The notes beneath the pieces are model-generated. The model searched no databases. It had not been told where the DNA came from and worked only from the letters and a program-made list of their open reading frames with translations. The translations under genes and the position numbers were made by a program. Below are positions 3,001-62,957 of a stretch of 64,000 nt of DNA, piece after piece (position 1 is the stretch's first letter; the number at the start of each line of letters is the position of its first letter). This DNA comes from Amphiscolops sp. MND2022 (Eukaryota): positions 9,550,001 through 9,614,000 of the forward strand of contig OZ076409.1 in the NCBI GenBank assembly GCA_964187785.1, in the 5' to 3' direction.

Positions 3001-6000
3001 ACTTGAAGAAAGTCACATAGTGACAAAAAAACAAGCCGGAAACGGCATAAACGGTGCCATATCTAAGGCTCAAAAATAACAAAAGAACATCAAAGTGTCA
3101 CAAAAACTCAGTATCAAACTCACAAAAAATGTTTTGAAACACTTTCGAAAAACCCAAACGACCGAGCTTTTTATATTTCAGTTTTGACTGCACTATAAGA
3201 TTGATATATCTGAACAGGTGTATCTCTTGAGTTTTCACTATTTGCGAACTTCCATTAATTGATCAAATCTCAAGTCGCTGAAAATAATGTAGCTTAGTTT
3301 TCTTTTTTTTTTGAAAACTTCCACTGAAAATCTACCTAAAAACTAAAAGTTTCGAAAATACTTTTTTGAGATCGAATTTTAGCTAACAGAAAACAACCCG
3401 GCCTAAACATCGACCTACATTACGACGCATAACCCTACACTTTTAGTGCGGCTCAAAGTTGAGCCGTTTGAGCAGTGGAATCCTGGGCCAAGCTTTAAAA
3501 CATACCAACCGCAAAGAGCGGAATTCGCCGCGCGGAATTCAGGGACTAATACCGCAGTGTTTAAATTTCTCCCTCTTTAGTAAATGGTTCCCTCGTAAAA
3601 CTCAAAGAGAGCAAAACCTTTTACAAAAGCTAAGAGAACAATTTTAGAAATGTTTACCCTTTGGAAAATCAGTTTTGCTTGTTTGACCAGAAACAACTTA
3701 ATTCGAAAGATGATGAAGCGAGCGAAACAGCGAGAAAAATTCTGATGATGAACAGCTTAACCCACTTTGGAAGACCTTGTTCGTTCATCAAAGTAGTCTC
3801 AATTTCAGAATATTCTTTTCATACACCTGTCAAAATAGGGGATCCATCATTGTACATTGCGTAGGCCCCTGGTTCTATGGAACTGCTGAAGAGAAGTGTG
3901 AGAGAGGACATCGCAATAAGAGTGCAAATACTGATGATGATTCCATAGGGCATCGTCCGACTGGCATCTATGGTCTCCTCAGTCACCATTGCCAGTTCCT
4001 CGATGCCCAGGTAGAACCAGAGTGAAAACGACAACCCTTTGGCAACCCCATCGACGCCGTCGTTGTAGAGCCAGCGTTTCGGACATGTCTCATTAACCTA
4101 GAACTTTTGTGAATATTAGCTGTTGAACTTATCAAATAACAAGCCGGGAACGGCCCAAGTTGGCGCCATATCTAAGGCTCAAAAATAGCAAAAGGACTTC
4201 AAAGTGTCAAAGTAATGGTGAATTGAGGACATTTTTATGAGAAAAATTATTGAAAAAAGTCTCACAATGCCGAAAAAACTGAAAGGAGGACCCTTTAGTC
4301 TCGTCCGGTATTGTATGTTACGTCGAAAACCCATTTGGTTCAGTTCCTTCACAGGTACAATTTGGGGTCTTCGTAAAATTTTGTAGAACTTTTGGGGTAG
4401 AACTATTTTGGTCACTTCAGGTGTATCGAAAAAAAAACACTGACGAAAAGCCATGACTATAGTCGACTCTTTTCTGAAGAAAAGTGCCGACTAAAAAATG
4501 GGAAAAGTCAACCGTGAGTTTGAATAACTGAGAGATTACCGGTTTCTTCTGAAAAGCTACCTGTGTATTTATCTAATCAATATTCCTTTGTCATAAATTC
4601 AAGCTTCCGATAAAGTTCAAGGTTGATAAAGGAATCTGTGAATCTTTTGAAGAATCTTCTATTTTTTCCTAGACAGTGTGGATCTTAGTACATTTCAAAA
4701 TGAGCAGGACTTGTTTTCCCACCGGCTCCTCAAATTTGAGATAAGGTCTTAAAGTTAGAACAGTTTTTAAGTGAATAGTTGTCGATGATAAGAATTTTCG
4801 CAAATTCTACTCACGTTTTCGCAGATTCCCAGAACCCACTGAAACATAAATCTTCAATGAAAACATAAAACCCAACAAACGCTGCCAATTATTTCTACTT
4901 TGATTGGAATTTTGAACTTGTTGGAAAAATTTGTATCACACACTCACTTTTCTGTTCTGGGCATTACAAAATGCTAAAAATAAACCATCGGTTTTTCAAG
5001 CATCGAATGAAGGTTTCAAAGTTTTCTCTTCAATTTTTAGAATATACTCAACATGGTTTTCAAGAAAGTCTTCGAAGTCCTCAAGAAGCGCGTGAGTGAA
5101 GTTTGAAGTTATATATTTACTGTTTGACCTCACGACACTGAATAACTTTGTGGAAGTCGAACTTGGGAATGGCTCCGCAGTAGAACACAAAAAAATACAT
5201 TTTTACTTTTCCAACTGACTCGACTGACTAACTTTGTGGAAGTCGAACTTGGGAACGGCCCCACAAAAGAACACACAAAGTAAATATATTAATAGTTGAT
5301 AGCAATATGATATTTCACCCAAAAATGTCTTTGATGTGTTGTATTGTATATAACCTGATTTCATCGATGCTTTGATATATCCGTTTGTTGATGTCTAAGT
5401 GCTATTCCAAGAATGTGGTTGTGGAAGACCATATGACATTTTCCTTGATTTTGTTGACATGTTGATGCTTAGGAATGTGATTATCATCCCCATGGGACTA
5501 TAAATACTAACAACTCTCATAGAGAGGACACTGTTTTGTAAACCGTTTTGTTGTTCAAACTTATCCAATAGTTTTTTCCGAATAAAATAACTCAGCTATT
5601 TACAATCGGACATTCTTGAAGCCTACTACAAAAAAGCAAAAAAGCCAGGAAATCTAGAGAAGTGGATATGTTGTCTGATATCGAAAATCTCGATGTAATG
5701 TTAGGTGGAAACCATTTGGAAAGGGACGACATTGAAACTAGTAATTATGGCAGAAGGCCTGAAAGTCCCAGTCATGGCACATTACTGAATCAGAATAGCG
5801 ATTCTTATTCCAATCAAATCTCGTCGAACGGAAATTACGACTAACGCCCAAAATGGCCAAAGCTCAAGAGAAGTAGATTCAGGCAGTTAATTTAACTGAC
5901 TGTCAGGAGAGGTAAACAAAGAATCACCAGGGAAATGAGTGATTTCATGAGCACAGTAAGTTCTCAGATTCAAAAGCCATAAACGAGGCAATCAGCGATC

Positions 6001-9000
6001 AAATCGTGCCTCAAATACAAGCTTCTTTGAAATCCGGACAAGGACATATGCCTGAAAGATGATGGGAAGACCCGAAACGAAGACTGGAATACAGATCTGA
6101 AGAAGCCTTGGACCGTAGGTTTAGGAGCGACTCCAGAGATGAATGTCATAGGTTTCCGAACAGAAATGAATACCTAGAGAGTACTCAGGACACTGACTAA
6201 CTTTGTGGAAGTCGATCTTGGGAATAGCCCCACAGTAGAACACACAGAGTAAACATGTTTTTCCTCTTTCAAATGACGACATTGACTAACTTTGTGGAAG
6301 TCGAGCTTGGGAATGGCCTCACAGTAGAACACACAGAGTAAAAATATTTTTACTTTTCCAACTGACTACACTGACTGACTTTGTGGAAGTCGATGTTGGG
6401 AACGGCTCCACAAAAAAACACACAAAGTAAATACATTTTTACTTTTTCAACTGACAACACTGACTAACTTCGTGGCAGTCAAACTTGGGATTGGCCCCGC
6501 AGTAGAACATACAGAGCAAACATTATTTCCGCTTTCAACTGCCTACACTGAATAACTTTGTGGAAGTCGAACTTGGGAATGGCCCCGCAGTAGAACACAC
6601 AAAATAAATACCTTATTACTTTTTCAATTGACTACACTGACTAACTTTGTGGAAGTCGAACTTGGGAATGGCCCCGCAGTAGAACACACAGAGTAAACAT
6701 GTTTTTCCTCTTTCAACTTACGACACTGACTAACTTTGTGGAAGTCGGCCTTGGGAGTGGCCCGCAGTAGAACATACAGAGCAAACATGTTTTCCGCTTT
6801 CAACTGCCTACACTGAGTAACTTTATGGAAGTCGAACTTGGGAATGGCCCCACAGTAGAACACACAGAGTAAACATGTTTTTCCTCTTTCAAATGACGAC
6901 ATTGACTAACTTTGTGGAAGTCGAACTTGGGAATGGCCTCACAGTAGAACACACAGAGTAAAAATATTTTTACTTTTCCAACTGACTACACTGACTAACT
7001 TTGTGGAAGTCGAAGTTGGGAACGGCTCCACAAAAGAACACGCAAAGCAAATACATTTTTACTTTTCCAACTGACAACACTGACTAACTTCGTGGCAGTC
7101 AAACTTGGGATTGGCCCCGCAAAAGAACACACAAAGTAAATATATTAATAGTTGATAGCAATATGATATTTCACCCAAAAATGTCTTTGATGTGTTGTAT
7201 TGTATATAACCTGATTTCATCGATGCTTTGATATATCCGTTTGTTGATGTCTAAGTGCTATTCCAAGAATGTGGTTGTGGAAGACCATATGACATTTTCC
7301 TTGATTTTGTTGACATGTTGATGCTTAGGAATGTGATTATCATCCCCATGGGACTATAAATACTAACAACTCTCATAGAGAGGACACTGTTTTGTAAACC
7401 GTTTTGTTGTTCAAACTTATCCAATAGTTTTTTCCGAATAAAATAACTCAGCTATTTACAATCGGACATTCTTGAAGCCTACTACAAAAAAGCAAAAAAG
7501 CCAGGAAATCTAGAGAAGTGGATATGTTGTCTGATATCGAAAATCTCGATGTAATGTTAGGTGGAAACCATTTGGAAAGGGACGACATTGAAACTAGTAA
7601 TTATGGCAGAAGGCCTGAAAGTCCCAGTCATGGCACATTACTGAATCAGAATAGCGATTCTTATTCCAATCAAATCTCGTCGAACGGAAATTACGACTAA
7701 CGCCCAAAATGGCCAAAGCTCAAGAGAAGTAGATTCAGGCAGTTAATTTAACTGACTGTCAGGAGAGGTAAACAAAGAATCACCAGGGAAATGAGTGATT
7801 TCATGAGCACAGTAAGTTCTCAGATTCAAAAGCCATAAACGAGGCAATCAGCGATCAAATCGTGCCTCAAATACAAGCTTCTTTGAAATCCGGACAAGGA
7901 CATATGCCTGAAAGATGATGGGAAGACCCGAAACGAAGACTGGAATACAGATCTGAAGAAGCCTTGGACCGTAGGTTTAGGAGCGACTCCAGAGATGAAT
8001 GTCATAGGTTTCCGAACAGAAATGAATACCTAGAGAGTACTCAGGACACTGACTAACTTTGTGGAAGTCGATCTTGGGAATAGCCCCACAGTAGAACACA
8101 CAGAGTAAACATGTTTTTCCTCTTTCAAATGACGACATTGACTAACTTTGTGGAAGTCGAGCTTGGGAATGGCCTCACAGTAGAACACACAGAGTGAATA
8201 CATTTTTACTTTTCAAACTGACGACACTGACTAACTTTGTGGAAGTCGAACTTGGGAATGGCCCCGCAGTAGAACACACAGAGTGAATACATTTTCACTT
8301 TTCCAACTGACTACTCTGACTAACTTTGTTGAAGTCGAACTTGGGAATGGCGCCGCAGTAGAACACACTGAGTGAATACATTTTTACTTTTCAAACTGAC
8401 GACACTGACTAACTTTGTTGAAGTCGAACTTGGGAATAGCGCCGCAGTAGAACACAGAGAGTGAATACATTTTCACTTTTCCAACTGACTACTCTGACTA
8501 ACTTTTGTGGAAGTCGAACTTGGGAATGGCCCCGCAGTAGAATACACAGAGTGAATACATTTTTACTTTTCAAACTGACGACACTGACTAACTTTGTGGA
8601 AGTCGAACTTGGGAATGGCCCCGCAGTAGAACACACAGAGTGAATACATTTTCACTTTTCCAACTGACTACTCTGACTAACTTTGTTGAAGTCGAACTTG
8701 GGAATGGCGCCGCAGTAGAACACACTGAGTGAATACATTTTTACTTTTCAAACTGACGACACTGACTAACTTTGTTGAAGTCGAACTTGGGAATAGCGCC
8801 GCAGTAGAACACACAGAGTGAATACATTTTCACTTTTCCAACTGACTACTCTGACTAACTTTGTTGAAGTCGAACTTGGGAATGGCGCCGCAGTAGAACA
8901 CACTGAGTGAATACATTTTTACTTTTCAAACTGACGACACTGACTAACTTTGTTGAAGTCGAACTTGGGAATAGCGCCGCAGTAGAACACAGAGAGTGAA

Positions 9001-19752: not shown

Positions 19753-19770
19753 TGGCGACCACAGAGGGAT
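19753..19770 (+). promoter_or_regulatory. primer-binding site, tRNA-Arg(UCG)-like
   Basis: TGGCGACCACAGAGGGAT resembles the complement of the 3' end of metazoan tRNA-Arg(UCG) (...GUGGUCGCCA), recalled rather than searched. Confidence 0.7.
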
Positions 19771-39913: not shown

Positions 39914-40564
39914 TCATTTCTTCACAAATAATAGCCGCAGCTCCAATCGGTTTTCTGTTCCTGAAAGCCCTTTGTCGTAAGCGCGAGAATTCGTGCTTGT
40001 GAATCCGTCTTTGAGACGGTCGTTACCTTGCTTACTCTTAGAATTGTTCTTAGGTTCTAAGTTTTGCAGCACTTCGGAATATCCTTCCGGTCTCTCGGCC
40101 GGAACGTTCCATCTCTCTTTGGTCAATTGTCCCGATCCGGCCATAACTGCATTTTGGATTTGAGGTAAAATTTGGCTACTAATTGCTTCATTTATGGCTC
40201 TTTGGATCTGAACACTGACGCTATTCATCATTTCATCCATCTCTCGAGATATACGAGAATTTAACTCACTCGACAATCTATTGATCTCAACACTTGAACA
40301 CTCTCTGATTGAATTATGGCCTAATTCGGTATTTGGACTAGGTCCATTATTTTCCGGGTTTGGGAACTCATTCTCATTTTCTTCTCCAAACTCATCTCCG
40401 AATAAGCTTTCTGGCCTACCGGTCTGATTACTATTCACACTTTCATTTCTCTCATTTCTATCAAAATGATTTCTTCCGAGCATAATATCTAAATTCTCAA
40501 TGTCTGATAGCATATCTGCTTCTCTAGATTTCCTTGTTTTCTTCTGTTTTCTAGTGGTAGGCAT
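39914..40564 (-). CDS. Gag N-terminus copy in the 3' LTR reading through into host flank (216 aa)
   Basis: Near-identical to ORF 54822 up to NSRAYD, then continues in flanking DNA; expression unknown. Confidence 0.45.
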   Translation of the reverse strand: MPTTRKQKKTRKSREADMLSDIENLDIMLGRNHFDRNERNESVNSNQTGRPESLFGDEFGEENENEFPNPENNGPSPNTELGHNSIRECSSVEINRLSSELNSRISREMDEMMNSVSVQIQRAINEAISSQILPQIQNAVMAGSGQLTKERWNVPAERPEGYSEVLQNLEPKNNSKSKQGNDRLKDGFTSTNSRAYDKGLSGTENRLELRLLFVKK

Positions 40565-41713
40565 TTAGGAAGAAAGTCCGAGGTTAATATTGAATTAGTT
40601 CGGAAAACTGGTAATATCAATGAACTGAACGTTGTGAAAAGAAAGCAACTTGTGTCCCCTCAGGAAGGGGGTGTATATATATATATACCTCCTGAGGCAT
40701 GACACTCACATTTTCCACATATTATTGAAATGTTTACATGTTCTAAAGGGTCGTGAAATTTTACGAGTATTAAAAAATAGCTATTGCATCAAAGTGATTC
40801 AGGAATTTAGGGTCGGAAAAATTCCTGAGGAATGCACTCAATTACATACTCATGATAGCTTCAAAGTACGGGGGACGGTTTAGTCCGCATTCCCGTAACA
40901 GTTAACATCAAAGCAAATATATGTTCAGACACTTCAAAGTAATATTTGTGTCAACAGGTATGTGAGGTATCTAAGGCACGTGCCTGCACACGCAAGCTAA
41001 TTCATCAAGTAGCAACTCCAATTACATGCACTAATAAAAGGTGGATGTGGCCCAATTCGGCCATTTGACAAAGGATCCATTCAATTAAAGCGACCGGTTT
41101 AGTCCACCGGACTATTATTTAGAGTTTATGACTGGTGGTCACAAATACATCAATTAGGTTTAAATAGGCCCATTAGCACCTTCTAAGTACAAATATAATC
41201 TTACATGACTTTAAATAACATGCATACTCAAATTAAACAATTACACAAGCTAATAGTTGGAATGGCCTAATCCGGCCATTTGCCTTTGGTCCGCTTACAA
41301 AATAAGGTATAGCGTCAAGTGGCCGTATACGGCCAAACAAATATGATAGTATAATGCACAGCAGGATAGAGCGTTCTGATTGGCTAATGAAATGAGCTCA
41401 AGTGACGTCTCCGGAATTAGAGTTTCGTTCACTTGAACTCGTTTCCTTTAAGCTTTACACTTGCCTTTACTATATTACGTCACTGCTAAACAATCCATCA
41501 TATAAGCATAATCATCACCGTTTGAATTCTAACACGAGTATTAATCAGACTAATATACAATCCGAATACATAATGAATATAATAAAACAACAGTGAGTTT
41601 TACTAAAAGTTTTGAATAATTCTCTTAAAATGTGGGCAAAGTACCTGGTACGGCTTCTTGCTCGTTAGTAGTCGTTGTGATCCGTGTCCCATCGCAAGCG
41701 GCAGCCTGCGACA
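39973..41713 (-). repeat. 3' LTR of element 2
   Basis: Matches 54231-55971 with about nine substitutions seen by eye. Confidence 0.97.
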
Positions 41714-42390: not shown

Positions 42391-43398
42391 ATTATCTTTT
42401 TAGCAATTTTGTTGATTCGTAGGGCGACTTGTTGCTTGCAGGATTCAAAGTTGAATGAGATTGTCAAAATTCCCTTCAGGCCAACTTAGGCTGTTTCCCC
42501 GGAGTTCCATTTCGGCGGGAGAAACCATGATCAATCGTCCTGATCCGTCGTAAACTTTCTAGAATGGAATTTCTTGGCGGCTTATTTACCCTTTGAAATT
42601 CAGAATGGTGCCCCCCTTTCTCACTCTCTTAAGTGAGTATGTGGAGGGGTGTTAAGTTGACAACAACAAATAACTCCACTCCAAGTGGGTAATCAACACC
42701 AAGCTTGATAGCAATTAACGGCACTTGTCGGAAGAAACTCACCGAAATGGCTTCATTCAATCAAATTTGAGCTTCGATAAATTTGAAAAAGAATAATAAA
42801 GATGGCGGAAAATAATAATTTTGAATAACTAAAATGGCGAAAATCTAACTAAGGTAACTAGGAAAACTGAACAAAACGGCAACATGAATAGGGGTAAACG
42901 GCCATAATCGGCCACTAATTGTAACAAGGTTGTAAATAGCGAGATACGTTCTGTACATTTTGCTGGCAGACTCCGTGTACAGATTTAAATATGTAGATAA
43001 TCAAATAATATTAGTCTGGTAAATCTTCAGCCACGAACTCCAACTTTCAATTCTTTACCTAATTCCAATTCCTCTATCTTTGCAATTTTCCTCTCCTGGG
43101 ATCCTCCGCTGTTACGCTTCACGAACTTTGTTGCTGTTTCCTGATCTTCCGTCGTCGCCGTATTCGGCCTTTCTCCACAGACTCTCCCCTGTAGATTTAC
43201 GTCTCATCTTCCAAAAAGGAGCAGCTTCATGGCTTCAAAATCAGGTTGGTCTGGATTTTCTTTTAATAGTCTGAACAATTTTGACTTGATCAGAGACAAA
43301 ACTTGTTCACAAACGCTTCCTGTTTCCGTTTTGTTTCACATGTTTCGACTAAATAGCCAAACTGAAAGACACTTCTAGAAGTTTTCTAACGCGGTAAA

Positions 43399-46300: not shown

Positions 46301-47686
46301 CAGAGCTTTGAATGGTCCCTCATCTGCGACACCTTCTTTGTTGTGAAATTGGAATTCTTCCAACGTATTATCAGTGACTGTAAGTATACGGACCTTTTGG
46401 GTTTATCACTGCTCGCTTCTAGCTTCATATCCCAAACTCTTGAATCCTGGTAGGGCAGTAAGCCCTGTTTCCTCGGTTGGTCATTTAGGCATACGGTTGG
46501 GTTTTTTCATGTGACCGGTTGTGTTTCAGACGTGTCCAGTTTCGTTGTCAACCTTCAAGGCAGACGAGATGCTACTTTCTTCCTTTGTGGGGAAGTCTGC
46601 CGATTCATCTCTAAGTTGTGCTCCCGTTGTTATCTGCCTGAAACGATCCCTGTCGAGAAAGATTGGTTCCTCTTGCTTGGTTTCGCCGTCGGTGAAGGCA
46701 AATTCCTTACTGAGGAGGACTTCCTGGTTCGACTGCGCTTGGTGAACAAAGTAGCGACTGCAAGTAAACAGAGTGCTGAAATCGTCCACTTGAATAAGAA
46801 GTCTGAGAAGGCTGCAATTGAGAAGACGGCGGATGAGGCAACTTCCAGTTTTGCCAGGGAAGGCCTCCACTTCGTACAGTATCTCTTGAAGGAGGTTCTC
46901 AATCAGGCTGGATTACGATCAGAGATTGTGAAGGGGTTGGCAGCTTTCGACCCTTTCATTTTATTCAAAAGACCTTCAGAAGTCGGCCTTCGTCACTTCG
47001 ATTTGTTATACGCTACCTTCCAACATCGGTCTTGGGTCTCATCTGCCAACGAGGATGCTTGCCGGGAGGAGTACATTGCCCTATTGGACCATCTTCGAGT
47101 GAGCTACCCCCCTGACTTCGATCTCCTAGAGAATTCCAAGGACCTCATCGACTTCATTATGGGACTAGAGTTCTTCCAGACTCATGAACATTTGCTCTAT
47201 TTGTTCAAATTGTGTTGTCTGTGTTTGACTAGTTCCAGTCCTCAGTATCCTCCTGTGTTATTTGGGAGTGTAGACACCACTGGATATCGTGGGCGCTTTA
47301 CTGATTTGGTCCTGCCTTGTCAAAGTTATCTTTCCTCCGTTCCTGATTCCATCTCTGGTTGCGTAACCGATGCCAATTTGGATAAATTTTCGCATCTCAG
47401 TGCCACCTTCGAACAGTCTGCCTTTGGTGCCGATTATGACCCGTGGACGTATGTTGATGTGTTTGGGCGATCCAAAATTTATAAGAGCTTATTGGCTTCA
47501 TATAAGCTCACTACATCCATCTCTGTTGCCCGCTCAGTTCGCTTGGAGGAGAGGAGTGTTTCATCCGTCCCCGATGAGTCTGCCCTGAAGATTCCTTCTA
47601 AGTTGCGAAGAAAAAGGCAGGGTAGCAACAGCTCAAGTCTTTCCTCAAGTTCTAAGAAGCCTGTCCAAGGTTCCTCTAAAGACTAG
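43399..47686 (+). CDS. antisense spliced accessory gene of element 2, ~1300 aa, BED-like zinc finger plus hAT-transposase-like region
   Basis: Exons 43399-45411, 45491-45976, 46024-46188, 46298-46379 and 46530-47686 join in frame through four GT-AG introns (3903 nt). Zinc finger WCHICKKNFSV..EILRHHRTEKH. Confidence 0.8.
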
Positions 47687-47901: not shown

Positions 47902-50900
47902 TTAGTATCTGAAGTCTTCTGAGTAGTTCGGATTAGGGTTAGGCCTGAGATTATATTTCCCTCCTCTAGGGCTCAGACTTTCATTTCTAGCATCGTTTTC
48001 AGATATTTCGGGCACGATAATATCATCCCCCCTTTTCGGAGATTTTTGTGCATCGACTTCTGTTCTAAAATTTTCATCGGGTAAAATTTCTTTGTCTTTC
48101 AGGCTGTCTGCCGTATCCGGCAAAGATTTTTCACGGCTTTTTGGGGAAATGGCCGGATTCGGCCAATCAAGTTCTTCATTTCTAGACTGTTCATTAGCTT
48201 CATTTCTTGTAGTGACGTCATCAATTAATCGTTCATTCCGGCTATGCGACGCTCGGTCGGCAAGATTTGATTTATCACTCGTGATTACATAATCCACTTC
48301 ATTCTCGTGTGCGTCACTCGTATTCGGCTGCTCCGCATTCGGTTGTTCGCCATTCGGTACGCTAGTCGGAATAGTCTCGTTGTCTCGTGTAACTAGCTGC
48401 TCTCCAAAATCTGTTTCCCACGTTATGACGTATAGGTCATCTTGCGGAATGACAATTTCTTCGTCTGGCTGCAGACGTTGTTCTCGGAAATTGTCTTCAA
48501 GCGGTTGATTGGGAATAAATTTTTTAAGGCGAATGCGATGCAAAATTTGAGTTTTGTTCGTATTGATCCTTCGTACTATGTAGTTTTGATTTGGCAAAAC
48601 CTTTTGGACTACAAATGGTCCAACCCAGCGGTAATCGCGGAATGGAATTTTTGATCCTTGATGATCCGCTTTCGGCTGTAAAACGAAACAGTCATCATTC
48701 TCCTTCAATGGAGCAGCTTTTGCTTTGCGGTCGTAATATTCTTTGTACTTGATGTACGACTGCATAATGTTCTGTTTCGTTTTATCAATTAGGATTTTTG
48801 TCCGGTTTTGGATTTCTTCAGCAAATTCGGTTGTGGGGTTAATCTGCTCATTTGGATTATTTCCAAGTTTGTGATCCAAGATATTAAATGGAATTCTTCC
48901 ATGGAATACTCTCGTCGGTTCACAACCGATGCTGGCGTGATAGCTATTATTATGATTCAGTACTGCTAATGGCAAGTATTTGTGCCATTGTCGGCGATAT
49001 TCTCCACATGCCATTTTGAGATTTGTTTTCAATGAGGCATGAGTTCGCTCCAATTTTCCAATTGTCTGCGGGTGTTTCGTCGTGGCGCATTTGAGTGTAA
49101 TGCCCAAAATCTGCGTAATTTCCGCGATTATTGTAGAAGTAAATGCAGTACCTTTGTCGGTGATAAGAGTCGTTGGTAGATATGAGTGTTTAGTCATTAT
49201 ATCAATGAGCGCTTTTGCCACGTTGATAGCTGATGCGTCCGTGAGAGGGTAAGCAAATAAATATCTGGAGAAAACATCAATTGCCGTTAGGACATTTTCA
49301 TACCCTCCACTTGGGGGAAGATTCGGCAATAGGTCAATCTGCATGGCGTCTTCAGGTCCAAGGTCCCATTCGGGCAAGTTGAGCAGCTCAGGTGTGATCG
49401 TTGCGTTAGGGACTCTCTTGTCTCTGGCACATTGTTCACACCCTTCTACCCACTTTTTGACGTGTTTAGCCATGCTAGGGTAGTAATACCTCTGTCTAAT
49501 TTCCTGTAGCATTTTTGAAATCCCGGGGTGTTTATGCGCTGTCCCGTGAAGGGATTGAAGCAATTCCCGGAGTAAGTGTTGCGGGAGTAGAATTTGATGG
49601 TATTTAACATTCCCTGTTTCATCAAAATATTGCCTCGTCAGGATTTCGTCCTTGAGTACGATTCGTTCCAGATTATTTGCATAGTGTCTATATCGAGTAT
49701 CCTGTTGCAGTATGTTTTCTGAATAGTCTTCATGAAGGAGTTTTGCCTTCAATTGTTGTAATACTGTATCTTTGGATTGCTCAATAATGATCTGGTTCGT
49801 TTTCCTCAATCGGACTTGTATATCGGGGTGTTGCTTGACCAGATTTGTTGACAGAGTTTGTATAGTAATAGTGGGCTCATCAGTTGCTGGATTTTTCCTG
49901 ATTGCTTCTTTTCTTGCCCAATACTGTTCCTCTGTCTCATCGTCATCATTGGTGTAGAAGATTTGTTCTTCTTGCGACACCCCTGCGGATTGGACATTGA
50001 TTTCGATTGGTAGTGTTTGTACATCTTCACGAATTTTCATTACTAATTTGTCCTTCGGATCTGCTTCCAATCGGGACAAGTAGTCGGCAGCTGTATTTTG
50101 TGCCCCTGGGATGTGTGCTATGACAAAATTGAACTGAATGACATAATCACACGCGTTCCACAGGGCTGGGGGTATTATTTTTGTTTGGAAAAATCTCGTG
50201 ACTGCTTTGTTGTCGGTAAGGATGATGACTGGTTTCGGCGCACCCCAGAATATATGTCCGAATTCTTTAAATGCAAAATAAATTGCAAGGAATTCCTTTG
50301 CGTAAATTGACATCTTTATCTGTGCTGGGGTGAAAGTTTTCGATCCGTATGCGACTGGAGCATACGATTTCCTGAGTGACGTGAATTTCTGGTTCGGGTC
50401 ATCTTCAATTAAGACCGCGTATCCGGCTGCACCAAAACTTGCGTCAGTCATTAGTGCTATTTGCTTGTTCGGAATGGGTTGCTGTAGGGCTAAGTCGCAA
50501 CATTTGTCTAGCGCTCTATTGATTTCTTCGAATTGTTGGACTAATTCTTTCGATACTAGGACCTTTTCGTCACTTTTGAGCATCTTGTAGAATGGAGCAA
50601 GGCGTTCGGAGAGTCTTGGGACATAATTCCTGTAGTAGTTCAGGAATCCCAAGTAGCGCTGCAAAGCCTTTTTCGACTTTGGGAATTTGGTCTTTTCCAG
50701 AAAGTTTTGCACGTTCTGTTTCTGGGGTTTGACGCCTTGCGGGGTAATAGTCCGTCCGAGAAAATCAATTTCTTTTGCACCGAAGTGACATTTGTGCATT
50801 GTCAACTTAAGGCCTGCTTCCTGAATGCATTTGAATGTTGCTCTCAGGTTCGTCATGAGGTGGTCGACATCATTGGCTGCGATGCCGATATCGTCCACAT

Positions 50901-53103
50901 ACTGGGCGCACTGATCCGCTTTAATGACTTTGTCGAGGTATTCCCTCATGAAACTCGAGAATGCGGATAGTGACCGACTAAGGCCTTGTGCTAAGCGTCT
51001 GTAAGCGAATGTGCGACTGGCAAAATTGAAAGCCAGCATTTCGATTGAACGTTGGTCAGCCATTGGTAGGCAGTGGTATGCCTGCGAACAGTCTAATTTA
51101 CAGAACAGTTTTTTGCCTGCCAAGTGTTGGGCAGCATCAACCAGGGTGCTAACAGGGTGATTATTGTTTATATAATCATCCGAGATGAGGTTGTTGATTT
51201 TCCTCAAGTCAACCAGGAGTCGTAGCTTCCCATTTGGTTTCTTTTGGGCGAATATTGGGCTTGCATACTTTGAGAACGGCAGTCTAGTTATTATGCCATA
51301 TTTATGTAACATGGCTAATTCGACGAGGATGTCTTCCTTCAAATTGATAGGGGCCGGAAGACTTTGACTATAGGCTGGGGAATCATCTTTAGGTGTCAGT
51401 TTCACCTTGAAGTCTTCGTTCATGCCTATATCAAATCGGTGTCGTGCAAAGATGTCATGGAATTCCACTAACAATTCCTCTATTTTCTCCTTCTCTTCAG
51501 GAGTAAGGGTGTAATCTTTCCAATCGAAATTTTTTAAGAACTTTGTACGTGATTCTTCATCTTGAGTAGGGTCAAGTGTCTCGAGGTCTTGTAAGGCCTG
51601 TAATTCCTGGAGGATTCGTTTTTGTATCGGCGTATGTTCCTCAGGATTTCCAGGATTTTCTGTGGTTGGGAACCAGTAATTTTCAGAGTTTTGTGGATTT
51701 CTATTAGTTTTGATGAGACTGCTGACATAGTGGGCTGCCTGCTCTTGATCATTCTGTAAGAGATGCCAGGTTGATGCCGGGTCCACCGGTTTGACATATT
51801 TCATTTGTTCTGGCGTCATAACAGAGAAATTGGCAATATGGAGTCCCTTTTTGAGTTTATAGGTGTGGTCTGTGAAATTATTCACAGGTATCGATATGTT
51901 GCCATCATTCAGAGTGACCAAAGCTGGGCAAAATGTGATGTCGCCTTCTTCATGTAGAAGGTCGCTCGGTTGTAAAATCCCGGTGACAGCATTCTCAGGG
52001 TACAGTAGGGAATTTGTCCTAATTAGGACTCTGTCATTTGGAGGAATGGTTATCTCAATGGGATTGAGAATTGGTTCTAGTACATTTGAATGTTTATGAT
52101 CAGCTGTTTTGAGCTGCATTGAAAAGAATGGGAAGTTTAGTATTCCTTGTCTCATGTCCAGAACTGTATGATTTCGTTGAAGGAACATTAGTCCAATGAT
52201 CGGACCTGTCAGGTGTTCCATGACTATGAAAATCTCGTGAAACTCGATGTCACCAACTTCAAATTTGAGCTCTATGGTACTCTTGGGAGTTTCCAATTGC
52301 CCATTAGCGACCATTATTTGGAAATTCGGAGGCGGGCCTTCCCGGATAACAGATTGTGGAGATAAAAGTCGGATTTTCCGGAGGTCCATTTCAGGAATTG
52401 CACTGGACAGCGCTCCAGTGTCGATGAGTCCATCAATGGTCAATTCCCCAAAGTCCATTGGGAAATACAACATGCGTTTCTTGCATTTGAGATTGATGTT
52501 GGTTGACAAAGGTATACAGTCTGGTTCGCCGTCCCTTGTGATTAGGACATTTTGGAATTGTTTCTCATCTAGTAGTGATTGCTGTATGGGTTCAGTATTG
52601 TTGTCATGGTTCTCGGTCCCCAATGGGTTTGGGAACACTGGGTGGTTCGTGCCATCATTCATTTGCCAGTTTTCAATTAATGCTCTGGTCTTCTTATTGT
52701 GGGTGATGGGAGGATTCTCGTGGACTGATTGATTGTAATGTTCGATATCATCTAGAACGTACTGGAATTGCAGTAAATCTTGGTTGTAAATCTCGGTGTC
52801 CCAATAGGGATCTCTGCCGTAGTCTGGGTCGATGTACGTTGGATTGTAATTATCTACCAGGGGAATGGGCCTGAACCGGGTAGTGAAGGTAGTGGTATAG
52901 TCAGGGTCCCAAACAGGAATTGGTTTTTGGAATAAATGAGTGTTGTTATAGGTGATGGTGGTAGCCTTGTCCATCTGTTGCTGCCAGACAACAGAGGGAT
53001 AGCCCATCAATTGCTGATTGTATTGGTGGAAAGTTTGCGTTGGAGGATCCGACCTGATGTATTGGCGGACGGATATCAGTTCGTTGTATTGGAGTCGTGG
53101 CAA
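47902..53103 (-). CDS. pol: Pol of element 2 (protease, RT, RNase H, integrase), intact 1733-aa frame
   Basis: LIDTGA; LAQG..YVDD; TDAS; H..H..CEQC with QID/TDKG/LERTH; WVGPF. Confidence 0.96.
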   Translation of the reverse strand: MPRLQYNELISVRQYIRSDPPTQTFHQYNQQLMGYPSVVWQQQMDKATTITYNNTHLFQKPIPVWDPDYTTTFTTRFRPIPLVDNYNPTYIDPDYGRDPYWDTEIYNQDLLQFQYVLDDIEHYNQSVHENPPITHNKKTRALIENWQMNDGTNHPVFPNPLGTENHDNNTEPIQQSLLDEKQFQNVLITRDGEPDCIPLSTNINLKCKKRMLYFPMDFGELTIDGLIDTGALSSAIPEMDLRKIRLLSPQSVIREGPPPNFQIMVANGQLETPKSTIELKFEVGDIEFHEIFIVMEHLTGPIIGLMFLQRNHTVLDMRQGILNFPFFSMQLKTADHKHSNVLEPILNPIEITIPPNDRVLIRTNSLLYPENAVTGILQPSDLLHEEGDITFCPALVTLNDGNISIPVNNFTDHTYKLKKGLHIANFSVMTPEQMKYVKPVDPASTWHLLQNDQEQAAHYVSSLIKTNRNPQNSENYWFPTTENPGNPEEHTPIQKRILQELQALQDLETLDPTQDEESRTKFLKNFDWKDYTLTPEEKEKIEELLVEFHDIFARHRFDIGMNEDFKVKLTPKDDSPAYSQSLPAPINLKEDILVELAMLHKYGIITRLPFSKYASPIFAQKKPNGKLRLLVDLRKINNLISDDYINNNHPVSTLVDAAQHLAGKKLFCKLDCSQAYHCLPMADQRSIEMLAFNFASRTFAYRRLAQGLSRSLSAFSSFMREYLDKVIKADQCAQYVDDIGIAANDVDHLMTNLRATFKCIQEAGLKLTMHKCHFGAKEIDFLGRTITPQGVKPQKQNVQNFLEKTKFPKSKKALQRYLGFLNYYRNYVPRLSERLAPFYKMLKSDEKVLVSKELVQQFEEINRALDKCCDLALQQPIPNKQIALMTDASFGAAGYAVLIEDDPNQKFTSLRKSYAPVAYGSKTFTPAQIKMSIYAKEFLAIYFAFKEFGHIFWGAPKPVIILTDNKAVTRFFQTKIIPPALWNACDYVIQFNFVIAHIPGAQNTAADYLSRLEADPKDKLVMKIREDVQTLPIEINVQSAGVSQEEQIFYTNDDDETEEQYWARKEAIRKNPATDEPTITIQTLSTNLVKQHPDIQVRLRKTNQIIIEQSKDTVLQQLKAKLLHEDYSENILQQDTRYRHYANNLERIVLKDEILTRQYFDETGNVKYHQILLPQHLLRELLQSLHGTAHKHPGISKMLQEIRQRYYYPSMAKHVKKWVEGCEQCARDKRVPNATITPELLNLPEWDLGPEDAMQIDLLPNLPPSGGYENVLTAIDVFSRYLFAYPLTDASAINVAKALIDIMTKHSYLPTTLITDKGTAFTSTIIAEITQILGITLKCATTKHPQTIGKLERTHASLKTNLKMACGEYRRQWHKYLPLAVLNHNNSYHASIGCEPTRVFHGRIPFNILDHKLGNNPNEQINPTTEFAEEIQNRTKILIDKTKQNIMQSYIKYKEYYDRKAKAAPLKENDDCFVLQPKADHQGSKIPFRDYRWVGPFVVQKVLPNQNYIVRRINTNKTQILHRIRLKKFIPNQPLEDNFREQRLQPDEEIVIPQDDLYVITWETDFGEQLVTRDNETIPTSVPNGEQPNAEQPNTSDAHENEVDYVITSDKSNLADRASHSRNERLIDDVTTRNEANEQSRNEELDWPNPAISPKSREKSLPDTADSLKDKEILPDENFRTEVDAQKSPKRGDDIIVPEISENDARNESLSPRGGKYNLRPNPNPNYSEDFRY

Positions 53104-53105
53104 AG

Positions 53106-54822
53106 TTAGTTTTTTGACTCATCATTAGAAGATGAGGATTGTGAGTTTGAAGATGTTGACTTGTTTTGCGGTTTCTGCGCCTTTGAATTGGGCTTTCCGT
53201 CATTGGCGTCATCTGGTCTGGTGCGTTTGGGTTTGAGATGCGCACCGGCGCCTTGCCAACATCTTTCTTCGGGGTGGTTCTTTTTACCACAAGTACCACA
53301 CTCCGGATACGTCTTTTTCTGAGTCTGTTTGCCTTGTTGGGCATCTTTTTCCTTTTTCTTTTTGAGTTTTTCGCAGTCCTTTACCATGTGGCCCTTTTCC
53401 TTGCAATAATTGCAGGTAATGTCTGACATTTGCCCAGTGGACAGAGGAGTTTTGGGCTTAGTCGATGAGGAGGTCATTGTTGCTATTGGTAGATCGTCTG
53501 ACTCCTCGAGGGCGTTAAGCTCTAATTCTCTCTCCAAATGAGCAACTATCTCATCGTATGAGCCATTTTCTAATCTGGCCATGTTAACAGACCGCTTCAG
53601 TTTCGGTGGCAGTTTTGCGTAAAGCAAACTGTCAATCATCTTTTGTGCTTGATCCCCGAATGCTTTTTCTGCCCCTTGATTTAGTTCTTCAAGGAAATCT
53701 GGCAGTTTCATCGTGTTGGGATCAAAGACTAGACGGTGCCATTTATGTTTGGCAGTTGCCTGTGATTCGGGTTTGACGTATTTTCGTCTGAATATTATCA
53801 ATACGTCTTCTAAAGTCTGTCTATTGCTCGAGCTGATGTTCCGGAAGGTTTGGAGAGCATTCTTCCTCAGCAGTGAGTGGAAGTGATTGATTTTCATCTG
53901 TTCCGTCATTTCCGGTTGCATCTTGATCATCGTGTGGAATAGGTCCTCAAACAGCTCGAATTTTTCACTCTTGCCATCAAAGTCATTGTGTTTGAATTGA
54001 CTGGGCGTATAGTGAGTTGTTGGGCTGTCGGCCTATTCTGCATCGTTGTCAAGACATCTGCTAGTCGAGTAATAGGTCAGTTTGAGCAGCCTGAGCATTT
54101 CTCTCTTGCGCTGGGATCGTCGTGTCAAGGTTAATATCCTCATAGGACCTGTCGAGATGGTTTCTGGATGAGATTCGTCCCGTGAGAAACTCAGGAACTT
54201 CGATTGGAGATTCGTTTTCTCCTGTCACCATGTCGTAAGCGCGAGAATTCGTGCTTGTGAATCCGTCTTTGAGACGGTCGTTACCTTGCTTACTCTTAGA
54301 ATTGTTCCTAGGTTCTAAGTTTTGCAGCACTTCGGAATATCCTTCCGGTCTCTCGGCCGGAACGTTCCATCTCTCTTTGGTCAATTGTCCCGATCCGGCC
54401 ATAACTGCATTTTGGATTTGAGGTAAAATTTGGCTACTAATGGCTTCATTTATGGCTCTTTGGATCTGAACACTGACGCTATTCATCATTTCATCCATCT
54501 CTCGAGATATACGAGAATTTAACTCACTCGACAATCTATTGATCTCAACACTTGAACACTCTCTGATTGAATTATGGCCTAATTCGGTATTTGGACTAGG
54601 TCCATTATTTTCCGGGTTTGGGAACTCATTCTCATTTTCTTCTCCCAACTCATCTCCGAATAAGCTTTCTGGCCTACCGGTCCGATTACTATTCACACTT
54701 TCATTTCTCTCATTTCTATCAAAATGATTTCTTCCGAGCATAATATCTAAATTCTCAATGTCTGATAGCATATCTGCTTCTCTAGATTTCCTTGTTTTCT
54801 TCTGTTTTCTAGTGGTAGGCAT
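53106..54822 (-). CDS. gag: Gag of element 2 (two apparent 1-nt homopolymer deletions near 54075 and 53980)
   Basis: Restoring one C and one T joins ORFs 54061-54822 and 53106-53930 via DPITRLADVLTTMQNRPTAQQLTIRPVNSNTMTFDGKSEKFELFEDLF. Zinc knuckles CNYCKEKGHMVKDC and CGTCGKKNHPEERC. Confidence 0.88.
53109..53115 (-). promoter_or_regulatory. -1 ribosomal frameshift slippery site A AAA AAC at the gag/pol junction
   Basis: Heptamer sits directly before the gag TAA and pol is in the -1 frame. Confidence 0.8.
54213..54230 (-). promoter_or_regulatory. primer-binding site of element 2, embedded in gag coding sequence
   Basis: TGGTGACAGGAG.. directly after the LTR-terminal CA; cognate tRNA not assigned. 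Confidence 0.65.
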
Positions 54823-55971
54823 TTAGGAAGAAAGTCCGAGGTTAATATTGAATTAGTTCGGAAAACTGGTAATATCAATGAACTGAACGTTGTGAAAAGA
54901 AAGCAACTTGTGTCCCCTCAGGAAGGGGGTGTATATATATATATACCTCCTGAGGCATGACACTCACATTTTCCACATATTATTGAAATGTTTACATGTT
55001 CTAAAGGGTCGTGAAATTTTACGAGTATTAAAAAATAGCTATTGCATCAAAGTGATTCATGAATTTAGGGTCGGAAAAATTCCTGAGGAATGCACTCAAT
55101 TACATACTCATGATAGCTTCAAAGTACGGGGGACGGTTTAGTCCGCATTCCCGTAACAGTTAACATCAAAGCAAATATATGTTCAGACACTTCAAAGTAA
55201 TATTTGTGTCAACAGGTATGTGAGGTATCTAAGGCACGTGCCTGCACACGCAAGCTAATTCATCAAGTAGCAACTCCAATTACATGCACTAATAAAAGGT
55301 GGATGTGGCCCAATTCGGCCATTTGACAAAGGATCCAGCCAATTAAAGCGACCGGTTTAGTCCACCGGACTATTATTTAGAGTTTATGACTGGTGGTCAC
55401 AAATACATCAATTAGGTTTAAATAGGCCCATTAGCACCTTCTAAGTACAAATATAATCTTACATGACTTTAAATAACATGCATACTCAAATTAAACAATT
55501 AAACAAGCTAATAGTTGGAATGGCCTAATCCGGCCATTTGCCTTTGGTCCGCTTACAAAATAAGGTATAGCGTCAAGTGGCCGTATACGGCCAAACAAAT
55601 ATGATAGTATAATGCACAGCAGGATAGAGCGTTCTGATTGGCTAATGAAATGAGCTCAAGTGACGTCTCCGGAATTAGAGTTTCGTTCACTTGAACTCGT
55701 TTCCTTTAAGCTTTACACTTGCCTTTACTATATTACGTCACTGCTAAACAATCCATCATATAAGCATAATCATCACCGTTTGAATTCTAACACGAGTATT
55801 AATCAGACTAATATACAATCCGAATACATAATGAATATAATAGAACAACAGTGAGTTTTACTAAAAGTTTTGAATAATTCTCTTAAAATGTGGGCAAAGT
55901 ACCTGGTACGGCTTCTTGCTCGTTAGTAGTCGTTGTGATCCGTGTCCCATCGCAAGCGGCAGCCTGCGACA
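54231..55971 (-). repeat. 5' LTR of element 2, containing the gag start codon (54822)
   Basis: Followed immediately on the minus strand by TGGTGACAGG (PBS-like). Confidence 0.97.
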
Positions 55972-56071
55972 CCCTTTACCTAATTTTTCAAATGCATATT
56001 AGTTAGGTCGCGAGTTGGCGCCACTTGTTGGGATGAAAGCGTCACCCCGGCGGCGCCGGGCCTTACAAATA

Positions 56072-58685
<2,614 letters not shown>

Positions 58686-60246: not shown

Positions 60247-60747
60247 TTATCTCCTACTGCAGCCAAGATGCTCGTGAGCCAGGAGTACAGTATAACTGGG
60301 CCACAAGCGATAAAAGATCAACCTCAAGATTTCCAAGGAGGATTGGAACAGATTTCTCAAGTTTCCGTCGTCAGAGGAGGCGTTGGAAGACCTAAAGAGC
60401 TTTTTGTTGGAGTATTCACTTCTACTGAAGTCAATTTCTTCTACTTCATCAGCGGAGTTTCCGTTATTTGCGACTCTATTGGTCAAACAACCACGTTCTG
60501 AACTCGTGCTAGACAAGTTGTCCACTTTTGATGACAAGTTCTCAATCAGTTTTAGAATTTCCCGCTGGTTCAATTCAGTATCTCTAAGACGTTTTGAAAT
60601 TTTATTTTCGATTTTATTGGAAATGTCCTCAAAGTCTCTATCAGACAGTAGGGTGTTTTCGTCATTAGTTGAACTCGCTACCTCTTCGTCCACCTGGCTA
60701 GTTGACTGGTCAATTCTGAGTTTTCGTTTCTGAGACCTTTCCGGCAT
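60247..60747 (-). CDS. Gag-like N-terminus (coiled coil) in the putative LTR of element 3, reading into flank
   Basis: MPERSQKRKLR..ISNKIENKISKRL; the inferred LTR end falls at ..EYSN|, as for ..AYD| in element 2. Confidence 0.5.
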   Translation of the reverse strand: MPERSQKRKLRIDQSTSQVDEEVASSTNDENTLLSDRDFEDISNKIENKISKRLRDTELNQREILKLIENLSSKVDNLSSTSSERGCLTNRVANNGNSADEVEEIDFSRSEYSNKKLFRSSNASSDDGNLRNLFQSSLEILRLIFYRLWPSYTVLLAHEHLGCSRR

Positions 60748-62324
60748 AATTTTAAAAATACCAGTTGATAATACTCAATTGAATTGGATGACAATATTAG
60801 TAACCGAGGTTGGTCGGTCAGCTGGTCAATCAACCAAAATCAAATACAATTAGTATCAAACACGTGGAGGGTCCGCAAAATTCAAGATTAAAATTGAATA
60901 CAATTTCAAAGAGCGAATAACAAATGATTACAAAGTTGAAAATTAATATCTGTCCTTTCCTAATCCCGCTTCAGGTACATATACTTTACGCTAGACACGC
61001 GGGGAAAACCCCGCGCGTGAATTCACACCTCGTTCAACTCGGCGTGTTTTCCAAGACGAGAAAATCCAAATAAGGTAGGCTTCCTCGGGATTCGGCATTC
61101 GGCTTCATCCTGCTTTCAAGTGAAAGCGGGAATCACTTCCTGCCGCTTCCCAATTCCGCGTCCCTTTCTTCTTCATTTCCCGCCTTTTCAAGACGCCGAG
61201 TCAAAGTTGGCACTGAAAATTCATGAACCTAGCTACTGAGGCGGGAAAAGGAACTGATTTTACATCGAAGAAATTAGTACTAACTGAAATAAATTGCACT
61301 AAATTGGAAAATGGATTTCAGGCAATATTAATCTCACAAAATGATCAATTTTATGGAGTAATCCACTGATTAAAATTCTGGTCGAATACCAGGACGACCT
61401 ATCAGCTTGGATTTCCGGAACACATGACAGGACATTGAACACCATAAACTAGCACAGGGAGGGGGGTTTAACACAACTTTAATGGCTACAGAAAGTATTA
61501 TATGCCATTCAAACAATAATAGATCAGAACAAATTGATAATTAACACTTAACACAATTTGGTTAATCTTTTACTCGTACTCAACCAAAACGGTTGCCCTG
61601 GTGGTCGTCCCGGGGTGGAGTATTAGCAACACGGTAATATTTGAACAAAACACTGCACGATGAACGAAATAATGCTTTGGTGGGAGAATTAGACCAAATT
61701 TGTTATATTAATTAAGTTACACTAATGATTAATGCACATTAATATTGGTTATAATAGATAGGTTATCCCGGTGGTTGTCCCATTTTGGGAAGAAGATTTG
61801 GACGGCCAGGCGGTTGACCTGAACAATAAATCAAATACTTTCATCGTTTAGGTACTTCAACATTTCCATCGGTTATTTATTGGTGGTTAGAGCATCTTTT
61901 AAGTTCCGTGTTCATATTGAAATGGTACAGCATTTATGTAGTAATAATACTGCTTCGGTTATTTGAAGCGTGTGGCCAGGCGTGCGTCCCAGCACTCGAT
62001 TGACTGGTGAGCCGCCTGGTATCGCTGTTCAGCTAGCGCGGTGTATTTGCACTAATCGCTGATTGGTCCGATGAAAATGGAATGATATTATTCTGCTAAA
62101 GCTCCGTTGTTATTGTAGCGGTAAATTGATTAGCGTGCTGGCCGAGTTAATTTCGGTCGGTATGCTGTTCGTTTTACTGTAAACAAATTGCACTGAAAGC
62201 ACTTTAATATTATTTAAGTATTTACATATTTATGTATTTTAGGTACTGCGCTGAATTAACAATGTTTGTTGGATGGTTTAATAGGATTGTTTGTTAATCG
62301 TTTCTTTCAGGTTCAGTGATGTTC

Positions 62325-62957
62325 TTATTCGGTCCTTTTCTGGGTGATTTCTCCATTCCCTTCCTTTGGCGTTCTCCCTGTATTCAGTATTTCGCTGCTC
62401 TCTGAGGGCTGCGACAGTCCCCCGCTTTGGTGAGGGACGTCCACTATGGGAGGTAATGGAGAAATTGGCCTGAAAGGTGACGATATTGGCGGATGAAATA
62501 CAGATTGTATCATTGAATCGTAGGATAGCCAGGATGAGTCAGTTGTCCAGTCACTGCCCGAGAAAAAACCAATTGAGCTGGTATCAGATATTGGGCTCAT
62601 TGTCCCGTCGTTGGGACTGTATAACCAGCTGTTCATGTTGTCGTAATTTCTCGGTGGGCTCATGAATATGTCATCTGGTATAATCGGGTTGACGTTGGTA
62701 AATCTTCTGACGGGGAGTGTATCCTCTTGTGCCGTGGAGAGTATTGAAGATGGGGCTGTTTCGTGATAAAGTACGATGTGTTCTCCCCCAGTGTTTATAA
62801 TTTCATAAACATCTTGGATAATGGGTGATTGTTCCGCCGCGTGGGGGTTATACAGTGTCTTGGGTGTTGATTGCGCCGCTGGGTTTTTCAAGTAAGCAGC
62901 TTGGTCGCGTTCCAAAATAAAACTATCGTTGGATAAATTGAAATCAAAAGATGCCAT
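62325..62957 (-). CDS. accessory ORF of element 3 overlapping the putative LTR (210 aa, Ser/Pro-rich)
   Basis: ATG-initiated ORF whose stop lies ~90 nt inside the putative LTR, as with 41625-42390. Confidence 0.55.
   Translation of the reverse strand: MASFDFNLSNDSFILERDQAAYLKNPAAQSTPKTLYNPHAAEQSPIIQDVYEIINTGGEHIVLYHETAPSSILSTAQEDTLPVRRFTNVNPIIPDDIFMSPPRNYDNMNSWLYSPNDGTMSPISDTSSIGFFSGSDWTTDSSWLSYDSMIQSVFHPPISSPFRPISPLPPIVDVPHQSGGLSQPSESSEILNTGRTPKEGNGEITQKRTE

What the first reader, a model, noticed from the sequence alone, without database searches (positions are those of the whole stretch)
54213..54950. ~197 codons of gag lie inside the LTR and read through the LTR end and PBS
Seen: the ATG at 54822 is 592 nt inside the LTR, ~110 nt downstream of a TATA-like run. 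The frame crosses the terminal CA and PBS as ..GAC A|TG GTG ACA GGA (D-M-V-T-G), so the integrase attachment end and PBS are also coding. Established: Ty1 GAG starts only a short distance inside its LTR. Inference: here U5 is a ~0.6-kb coding region and minus-strand strong-stop DNA would be unusually long.
Basis: partly seen in the sequence, partly recalled or inferred. Interest (0 to 1): 0.8.

Follow-up and report, generated by a model that had tools for sequence, protein, structure and literature searches.

The report
Gag domain encoded inside the LTR
A family of retrovirus-like jumping genes has the first 197 codons of its capsid (Gag) reading frame inside its terminal repeat, conserved as protein and continuing in frame across the repeat end and primer site, so each leftover repeat likely carries a promoter plus an open-ended gene piece, a larger version of a layout known from two yeast elements.

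Summary
A 16-kb Ty3/gypsy-type element has 1741-bp LTRs (99.5% identical, TG..CA, 5-bp duplication). The ATG at 54822 lies 592 nt inside the LTR, and the frame crosses the LTR end and PBS as D|MVTG. This copy's gag has two frame breaks downstream, but relatives encode continuous 563-573-aa Gags with this N-terminus. Truncated relatives diverge right at the junction; 83 of 85 continue with a residue that an A-initial codon can encode, which places the LTR end there family-wide. Two blocks show strong synonymous excess against a distant copy, so the LTR segment is selected as protein; it holds one predicted 50-residue amphipathic helix. A second family in the window does the same with a 114-codon domain of no detectable homology. 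No RNA data were available, so the start site and R/U5 border are untested. R+U5 and strong-stop DNA would exceed 592 nt, but 'U5 is coding' stays open. Precedents exist: Ty1 (about 14 codons) and Candida Tca5 (about 100). Verdict: a new, larger variant of a known layout.

The parts
54231..55971 (-). 5' LTR, 1741 bp, TG...CA
   Evidence: 99.5% identical to 39973-41713
54932..54945 (-). TA run, candidate TATA box, 110-123 nt upstream of the ATG
   Evidence: a canonical TATAAA aligns at -120 in the degenerate relative; function inferred
54232..54822 (-). LTR-encoded Gag N-terminus, 197 codons; first ATG downstream of the TA run
54400..54555 (-). codons 90-141: predicted long amphipathic helix, hydrophobic period about 3.75-3.8
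   Evidence: (block pLDDT 87-96)
54229..54231 (-). junction codon A|TG (Met198): last LTR base plus first two PBS bases
   Evidence: [HY]DMVTG in 111 of 120 proteins
54219..54230 (-). primer-binding site starting TGG, read as M-V-T-G; primer tRNA not identified, 3' limit approximate
   Evidence: no tRNA gene in the window
54061..54230 (-). continuation of the LTR-started frame to its stop; first frame break near 54080
53106..54032 (-). gag capsid-like (DUF1759) and zinc-knuckle ORF; second frame break near 54000; candidate -1 frameshift heptamer at 53109-53115
47902..53118 (-). pol, order PR-RT-RH-IN, 1738 aa open
39973..41713 (-). 3' LTR
39914..40564 (-). 3'-LTR copy of the ORF: 197 codons plus 19 from flanking DNA
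55972..55976 (.). target-site duplication (second copy at 39968-39972)
60405..62416 (-). LTR of a second family (2012 bp; limits inferred from termini, upstream purine tract and protein junctions; partner LTR not in the window)
60406..60747 (-). second family's LTR-encoded Gag N-terminus, 114 codons, same +1 phase at the LTR end
5612..6193 (+). degenerate distant copy of the LTR coding segment (identical duplicate 1856 nt downstream), ending in the same GAC A phase at an 89-bp satellite

Best explanation
This Ty3/gypsy-type retrotransposon family encodes the first 197 residues of its 563-573-aa Gag frame inside the LTR, joined in frame through the LTR's last base and the primer site to the capsid region and conserved as protein; it is likely transcribed from just after the TA run, likely translated from the ATG at 54822, and would make a minus-strand strong-stop DNA of about 0.7 kb. 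SHOWN: LTR limits; the continuous frame in intact relatives; the same junction in 14 LTR types and in a second family; synonymous excess in codons 1-33 and 91-160. PREDICTED: a basic N-terminal tail and one long amphipathic helix (90-141) between disordered stretches, likely an oligomerisation domain in front of the capsid. INFERRED: transcription start about 25-35 nt after the TA run; scanning to the first ATG; the R/U5 border; and that every 3' or solo LTR holds a promoter, an ATG and 197 stop-free codons that run into host DNA. The LTR-encoded part evolves several-fold faster than the rest of Gag and recombines against it.
For: 220 longer homologues at E<=0.001 among 610 candidates. Of the 120 listed, 117 also match the capsid ORF, 116 start with the same basic motif and 111 have [HY]DMVTG. 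Proteins that leave the family sequence at the junction continue with an A-initial-codon residue (I, M, T, N, K, S, R) in 22 of 22, 45 of 47 and 16 of 16, against a background of 0.42. Against the degenerate copy, pS/pN is 0.88/0.10 in codons 1-33 (Fisher p=5e-11) and 0.80/0.30 in codons 91-160 (p=1.5e-8), dN/dS is about 0.26 over 174 codons, and the two other frames show no excess. Identity among 14 LTR types is 0.84-0.93 in residues 1-30 and 0.75-0.87 in 91-135, against 0.23-0.55 in 31-90 and 166-195. A neutral model expects a flat profile and P(no stop)=0.003 at 59% identity. There is no ATG between the TA run and 54822, and 17 ATGs precede the junction ATG. Second family: 114 of 123 aligned proteins read N|MVTG, 4 more have one substitution in that motif, 4 diverge at the junction, 1 has no junction.
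Against: No RNA, ribosome or peptide data. The first ATG has a weak context (T at -3) while the junction ATG has a strong one (G at -3 and +4). This copy's gag is broken twice, and 3 of the 4 LTR-LTR differences in the coding part are non-synonymous (expected after insertion, uninformative about the family). Codons 34-90 and 161-197 show no synonymous excess (pS/pN 0.45/0.42 and 0.48/0.43, poorly aligned). Protein searches return only open frames, which biases the stop-codon argument. The DNA-level test rests on one pair of sequences. No canonical poly(A) signal in the LTR. The domain has no structural or family match, so its function is inferred from shape alone.
Confidence: 0.85

Rival explanations
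1. Gag starts at the junction ATG (A|TG) and the LTR frame is an untranslated or vestigial open frame.
For: The junction ATG has a strong context and is nearly invariant in both families.
Against: Its invariance is forced by the LTR's terminal CA and the PBS's TGG. 17 ATGs lie upstream of it after the TA run. Codons 1-33 and 91-160 show synonymous excess, and residues 1-15 are 93% identical across 14 types.
Confidence: 0.04
2. The coding segment is real Gag but lies mostly in a long R region (poly(A) site near the LTR end), so U5 is ordinary and the RNA carries the segment at both ends.
For: No AATAAA or ATTAAA anywhere in this LTR; weak hexamer variants (CATAAA, AATGAA, AATAGA, AAGAAA) occur only inside the coding part. 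The second family's LTR has AATAAA at +129 and +141 in its coding part.
Against: The degenerate relative has TATAAA at -120 and AATAAA at -38, the usual short-R layout. Hexamers within A-rich codons are expected by chance.
Confidence: 0.3
3. The LTR-encoded domain is an exchangeable cassette swapped exactly at the LTR end, because intermolecular strong-stop transfer moves U5 from one RNA onto the body of another.
For: 1095 of 1656 pairs with capsids at least 97% identical have LTR parts under 70% identical. Identity steps from 0.23 to 0.81 at the junction. AU tests reject monophyly of LTR type 2 (p=2.4e-5) and of types 1-5 (p=9e-4) in the downstream tree (groups chosen after seeing the trees).
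Against: The two trees share most major groups. The window copy's own breakpoint lies at least 18 codons past the LTR end. Only 30 of 91 pairwise change points fall at residues 190-199, while 55 fall at 245-264. Residues 198-215 still track LTR type.
Confidence: 0.2
4. Truncated products from 3' and solo LTRs are made and co-assemble with full Gag through the helix, damping the element's own spread, which drives fast divergence of the domain.
For: Every such LTR keeps the TA run, the ATG and the whole helix; 85 truncated frames of this kind were counted. Ty1 has an element-encoded truncated Gag restriction factor, p22 (PMC4551931, abstract start in search listing only).
Against: No expression data. 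If poly(A) addition occurs before the ATG these frames would not be on stable RNA. Fast divergence is concentrated in disordered stretches, not the helix.
Confidence: 0.12

Closest known systems
Candida albicans Tca5 (Ty1/copia, Ty5-like); PMC4139406, section 11 read in full
   Same: The single ORF begins deep in the left LTR (nt 382 of 685, about 100 codons) and runs through the LTR end and PBS.
   Different: Copia superfamily, fungal, one ORF; the review says the start used in vivo is unclear and that section gives no selection test. Here: gypsy-type, twice the length, separate gag and pol frames, with evidence of purifying selection and family-wide conservation.
Saccharomyces Ty1; PMC5454406, passages read
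   Same: GAG starts inside the LTR (53-nt 5' UTR, PBS at RNA nt 95-104), and the PBS is coding (silent PBS mutations preserve the Gag sequence).
   Different: Only about 14 codons lie in the LTR and strong-stop DNA is under 100 nt by those coordinates; no separate domain is LTR-encoded.
Ty3/gypsy LTR retrotransposons (Metaviridae)
   Same: PR-RT-RH-IN order, TG..CA ends, 5-bp duplication, capsid-like domain plus CCHC knuckles; best solved RT matches are foamy virus, Ty3 and caulimovirus enzymes.
   Different: Gag normally starts downstream of the PBS (recalled). This element also carries about 6 kb of extra ORFs and shows no purine tract before the 3' LTR. Clade not determined.
LTR-overlapping genes of retroviruses (HIV nef, MMTV sag; recalled, no call)
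   Same: Protein-coding sequence inside an LTR.
   Different: Those are accessory genes in U3 read from the 3' end; here it is the structural Gag N-terminus in R/U5.

Membership tests
Ty3/gypsy (Metaviridae) | pol domain order PR-RT-RH-IN | tested here: met
   Pfam hits at aa 221-315, 626-791, 860-981, 1179-1350
Ty3/gypsy (Metaviridae) | LTRs with TG..CA ends and 4-6 bp target duplication | tested here: met
Ty3/gypsy (Metaviridae) | PBS next to the 5' LTR complementary to a host tRNA | tested here: inconclusive
   TGG directly after the LTR and conserved as MVTG in two families; no host tRNA set held
Ty3/gypsy (Metaviridae) | polypurine tract before the 3' LTR | tested here: inconclusive
   No purine run in the 37 nt before the main element's 3' LTR (a displaced tract was not searched for); present before the second family's LTR
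Ty3/gypsy (Metaviridae) | RT groups with Metaviridae in a phylogeny | not testable with these tools
   No named reference set; only solved-structure matches (foamy virus 1e-28, Ty3 1e-24)
BEL/Pao (Belpaoviridae) | single gag-pol ORF with a triple zinc-knuckle cluster (recalled definition) | tested here: not met
   DUF1759 hit, but two CCHC motifs and separate gag and pol frames
Troyka | CG..CG ends and 3-bp duplication (PMC12440569, part 1 of 5 read) | tested here: not met
   TG..CA and 5 bp
Odin | dual RNase H: tether plus new RH (PMC9040795, passages) | tested here: not met
   One gypsy-type RH hit directly after RT and no second RH hit before IN; Pfam-level test only
Ty1/Tca5-type 'gag starts in the LTR' layout | in-frame ATG inside the LTR, frame continuous through the PBS into the capsid | tested here: met
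   (in intact relatives; the window copy is broken downstream)
Ty1/Tca5-type 'gag starts in the LTR' layout | RNA start upstream of that ATG and translation from it | not testable with these tools
   no sequencing run listed

The most novel reading that the evidence does not exclude
A lineage of gypsy-type elements has moved a whole Gag oligomerisation domain into U5, with different domains in different families. The LTR then acts as a fast-evolving, recombining specificity module for particle assembly. The many 3' and solo LTRs it leaves are ready-made promoter-ATG-domain units that express truncated Gag or Gag-host fusion proteins, giving LTR-encoded copy-number control and raw material for new genes.
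Probability: 0.15. Interest if true: 0.8.

Novelty: new variant of a known kind. Interest (0 to 1): 0.52.

Why it matters
LTRs are usually treated as non-coding. Here a third of Gag, under selection, sits in the repeat, and two related families do this with domains of no detectable homology. Consequences if the inferred steps hold: strong-stop DNA of about 0.7 kb, several times that of Ty1; the integrase attachment end and PBS constrained by codons; annotation that looks for gag only between the LTRs truncates the gene; and each solo LTR is an open-ended gene start that fuses to flanking DNA, a testable route to truncated-Gag regulators or new host genes.

Tried and rejected
No own genome held. 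No sequencing run was listed, which is no evidence on expression. Viral-contig scans: no relative; 11 matches to a 17-nt junction pattern encode no Gag by tblastn and were treated as chance. The metagenome scan gave 12 loci; two match the capsid region, none covers the LTR, so no multi-copy DNA alignment was possible. The ESM Atlas gave one uninformative hit at 0.76. Pfam YpjP hits are below cut-off. The full-length Gag model was low confidence (mean pLDDT 40). Foldseek on the domain model found nothing at E<=0.001. PDB profile search hit only zinc knuckles. The complex prediction of four copies of residues 80-150 returned no verdict (score 0.24, mark 0.32) and is not used either way. RNA folding of 54150-54960 was unremarkable (z=-1.7); no Rfam match. 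A clean swap exactly at the LTR end was considered and mostly not borne out. Troyka, Odin and BEL membership were rejected. Ten paper searches found no description of this family or of a gypsy element with so long an LTR-encoded gag segment. The library lacks most subscription papers and Repbase entries, and no supplements were read, so absence from print is not shown.

Full report
Element anatomy. Self-comparison of the window shows a 1741-bp direct repeat at 54231-55971 and 39973-41713, with 9 differences and no gaps, TGTCG...CGACA ends and a CCCTT duplication outside both ends. The 15,999-bp element reads on the minus strand. It holds a 253-codon ORF (54822-54061), a capsid-like DUF1759 plus zinc-knuckle ORF (54032-53106), a 1738-aa pol in the order PR-RT-RH-IN, and extra ORFs. 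The best solved matches of the RT-RH region are foamy virus, Ty3 and caulimovirus enzymes. It is a Ty3/gypsy-type element; its clade and host were not determined.

Observation. The ATG at 54822 is LTR nt 1150, 592 nt from the LTR end, and follows an in-frame stop. A TA run lies 110-123 nt upstream. The junction reads GAC A|TG GTG ACA GGA. None of 20,000 shuffles kept any sense frame open over that length.

Is it Gag? A search with the 197 LTR-encoded residues among longer proteins returned 220 hits of 610 candidates. Of the 120 listed, 117 also match the downstream capsid ORF, 116 begin with the same basic motif and 111 contain [HY]DMVTG. Intact members are 563-573 aa. All are unnamed ENA records, so the taxonomic range is unknown and they may come from few assemblies.

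Is the LTR end at the same place in relatives? I had no DNA for them, so I used a protein test. A 3' or solo LTR should give a protein that matches to the junction Asp and then runs into random DNA, with the next codon starting with the LTR's final A. Among 96 non-reference proteins aligning to the domain, 73 read through, 22 diverged (one only after MVT) and 1 lacked the junction; 22 of 22 continued with I, M, T, N, K, S or R. Among 150 cluster representatives, 97 did not reach the junction, 6 read through and 47 diverged; 45 of 47 fit. Among 27 further members, 9 were not parsed, 2 read through and 16 of 16 fit. The background is 0.42. The rows are not all independent, but the layout clearly holds across types only 53-60% identical to the window's.

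Selection. The window holds two identical degenerate copies of a distant LTR segment (5612-6193 and 1856 nt further on) that end in the same GAC A phase. Against one of them, pS/pN is 0.88/0.10 in codons 1-33 and 0.80/0.30 in codons 91-160 (Fisher p 5e-11 and 1.5e-8). Codons 34-90 and 161-197 show no excess (0.45/0.42 and 0.48/0.43), and neither do the other two frames. Across 14 LTR types identity is high in residues 1-30 and 91-135 and low in between and before the junction. A neutral model predicts a flat profile and a 0.003 chance of no stop at that divergence (biased, since searches return only open frames). The conserved central block is one long helix, residues 90-141, with block pLDDT 87-96 and a hydrophobic period near 3.75-3.8. 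It has no fold or family match. An oligomerisation role is inferred from shape only.

Which ATG? No ATG lies between the TA run and 54822, and 17 precede the junction ATG, so scanning favours Met1. Against this, Met1 has a weak context and the junction ATG a strong one; leaky starts at Met18 or Met28 are possible. The junction ATG is conserved because LTR-CA and PBS-TGG are, so its conservation says nothing about initiation.

R or U5? Untested. The LTR has no AATAAA or ATTAAA. The degenerate relative has TATAAA at -120 and AATAAA at -38, which would make R short and the coding segment U5. Either way, if Gag is made from genomic RNA, R+U5 and strong-stop DNA exceed 592 nt, about 0.7 kb from the TA run (inference; mechanism as described in PMC7197481, passages).

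A second family. An LTR-like segment at 62416-60405 starts with the same eight bases, follows a purine tract, and has an ATG 343 nt (114 codons + 1 nt) before its end. Its homologues are 464-474-aa Gags (51 hits). Of 123 aligned proteins among 144 held, 114 read N|MVTG, 4 carry one substitution, 4 diverge at the junction and 1 lacks it. Its domain shows no homology to the first by profile comparison (probability 0.25%), while the Gags align at 148 of 429 positions. The layout is thus shared by two related families with different or unrecognisably diverged domains. A third gypsy element in the window, with 734-bp LTRs, has no frame over 86 codons in its LTR region on the sense strand, so this is not general.

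Evolution. The LTR part is far more divergent than the rest of Gag: median end branch 0.17 against 0.023, and disordered stretches 0.32-0.45 against 0.73-0.78 identity. Recombination between the parts is supported (AU p 2.4e-5 and 9e-4; groups named after seeing the trees). The window copy is itself a chimera: type-2 LTR, and a body closest to types 10, 12 and 13, a form also seen in P0684 and P0685. But the trees are largely congruent, this copy's breakpoint is at least 18 codons past the LTR end, and only 30 of 91 change points fall at the junction. An exact swap by strong-stop transfer is therefore not favoured.

Comparison with known systems. In Ty1, GAG starts after a 53-nt leader and the PBS (nt 95-104) is coding (PMC5454406, passages), about 14 codons in the LTR. 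In Tca5 the ORF starts at nt 382 of a 685-bp LTR, with the in vivo start unresolved (PMC4139406, section 11). Both are copia-type. Troyka (PMC12440569, part 1 of 5) and Odin (PMC9040795, passages) do not fit. PMC4974528, PMC12992720 and PMC5371799 were searched for passages and added nothing. Two unchecked notes of this scan describe gag starts in tiny microsporidian LTRs. Ten searches found no account of this family or of so long a segment in a gypsy element, within the library's limits; no supplements were read.

Verdict. A real, selected, family-wide feature: a new and larger variant of a known layout. Interest 0.52. The bolder reading, that solo LTRs express regulatory truncated Gags or fusion proteins, is not excluded (0.15) and needs RNA and peptide data.

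Noticed in passing
window 41714-41750 (minus strand): No purine tract before the 3' LTR of a young element; the stretch is pyrimidine-rich and coding, and four other proteins keep the same residues there, so it is not decay of this copy. Plus-strand priming is unexplained.
   Followed up: partly
window 41625-42485 and 62325-62957 (minus strand): In both families a 3' ORF runs about 30 codons into the start of the LTR, so both LTR ends are coding. The second family's ORF forms a 35-member cluster, with 9 of 15 listed at 210 aa.
   Followed up: partly
window 43390-47686 (plus strand, antisense to the element): Three antisense ORFs inside the element; the 696-aa one has a 49-member cluster and a region resembling BED/C2H2 zinc fingers of FAM200/ZBED-type proteins (feature scores 0.86-0.90, a lead only).
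   Followed up: partly
window 53109-53115 (minus strand): A AAA AAC heptamer directly before the gag stop, a candidate -1 frameshift site into pol.
   Followed up: no
window 19003-38718 (plus strand): Another gypsy element with 734-bp LTRs (99.9%), about 2.9 kb between LTR and gag, a TGG only 16 nt after the LTR, and three extra sense ORFs of 796, 223 and 1354 aa without Pfam hits.
   Followed up: no
window 5111-11489: 89/178-bp satellite array containing two identical degenerate LTR-like segments within a 1856-bp duplication.
   Followed up: partly
window 56072-58447: Tandem duplication of about 1185 bp (99.3%) bounded by TC microsatellites.
   Followed up: no
window 13013-13455 and 16865-17323: Long imperfect inverted repeats (about 73%) 3.4 kb apart, with an inner inverted pair at 15430-15507 and 16432-16509; possibly a DNA transposon.
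   Followed up: no
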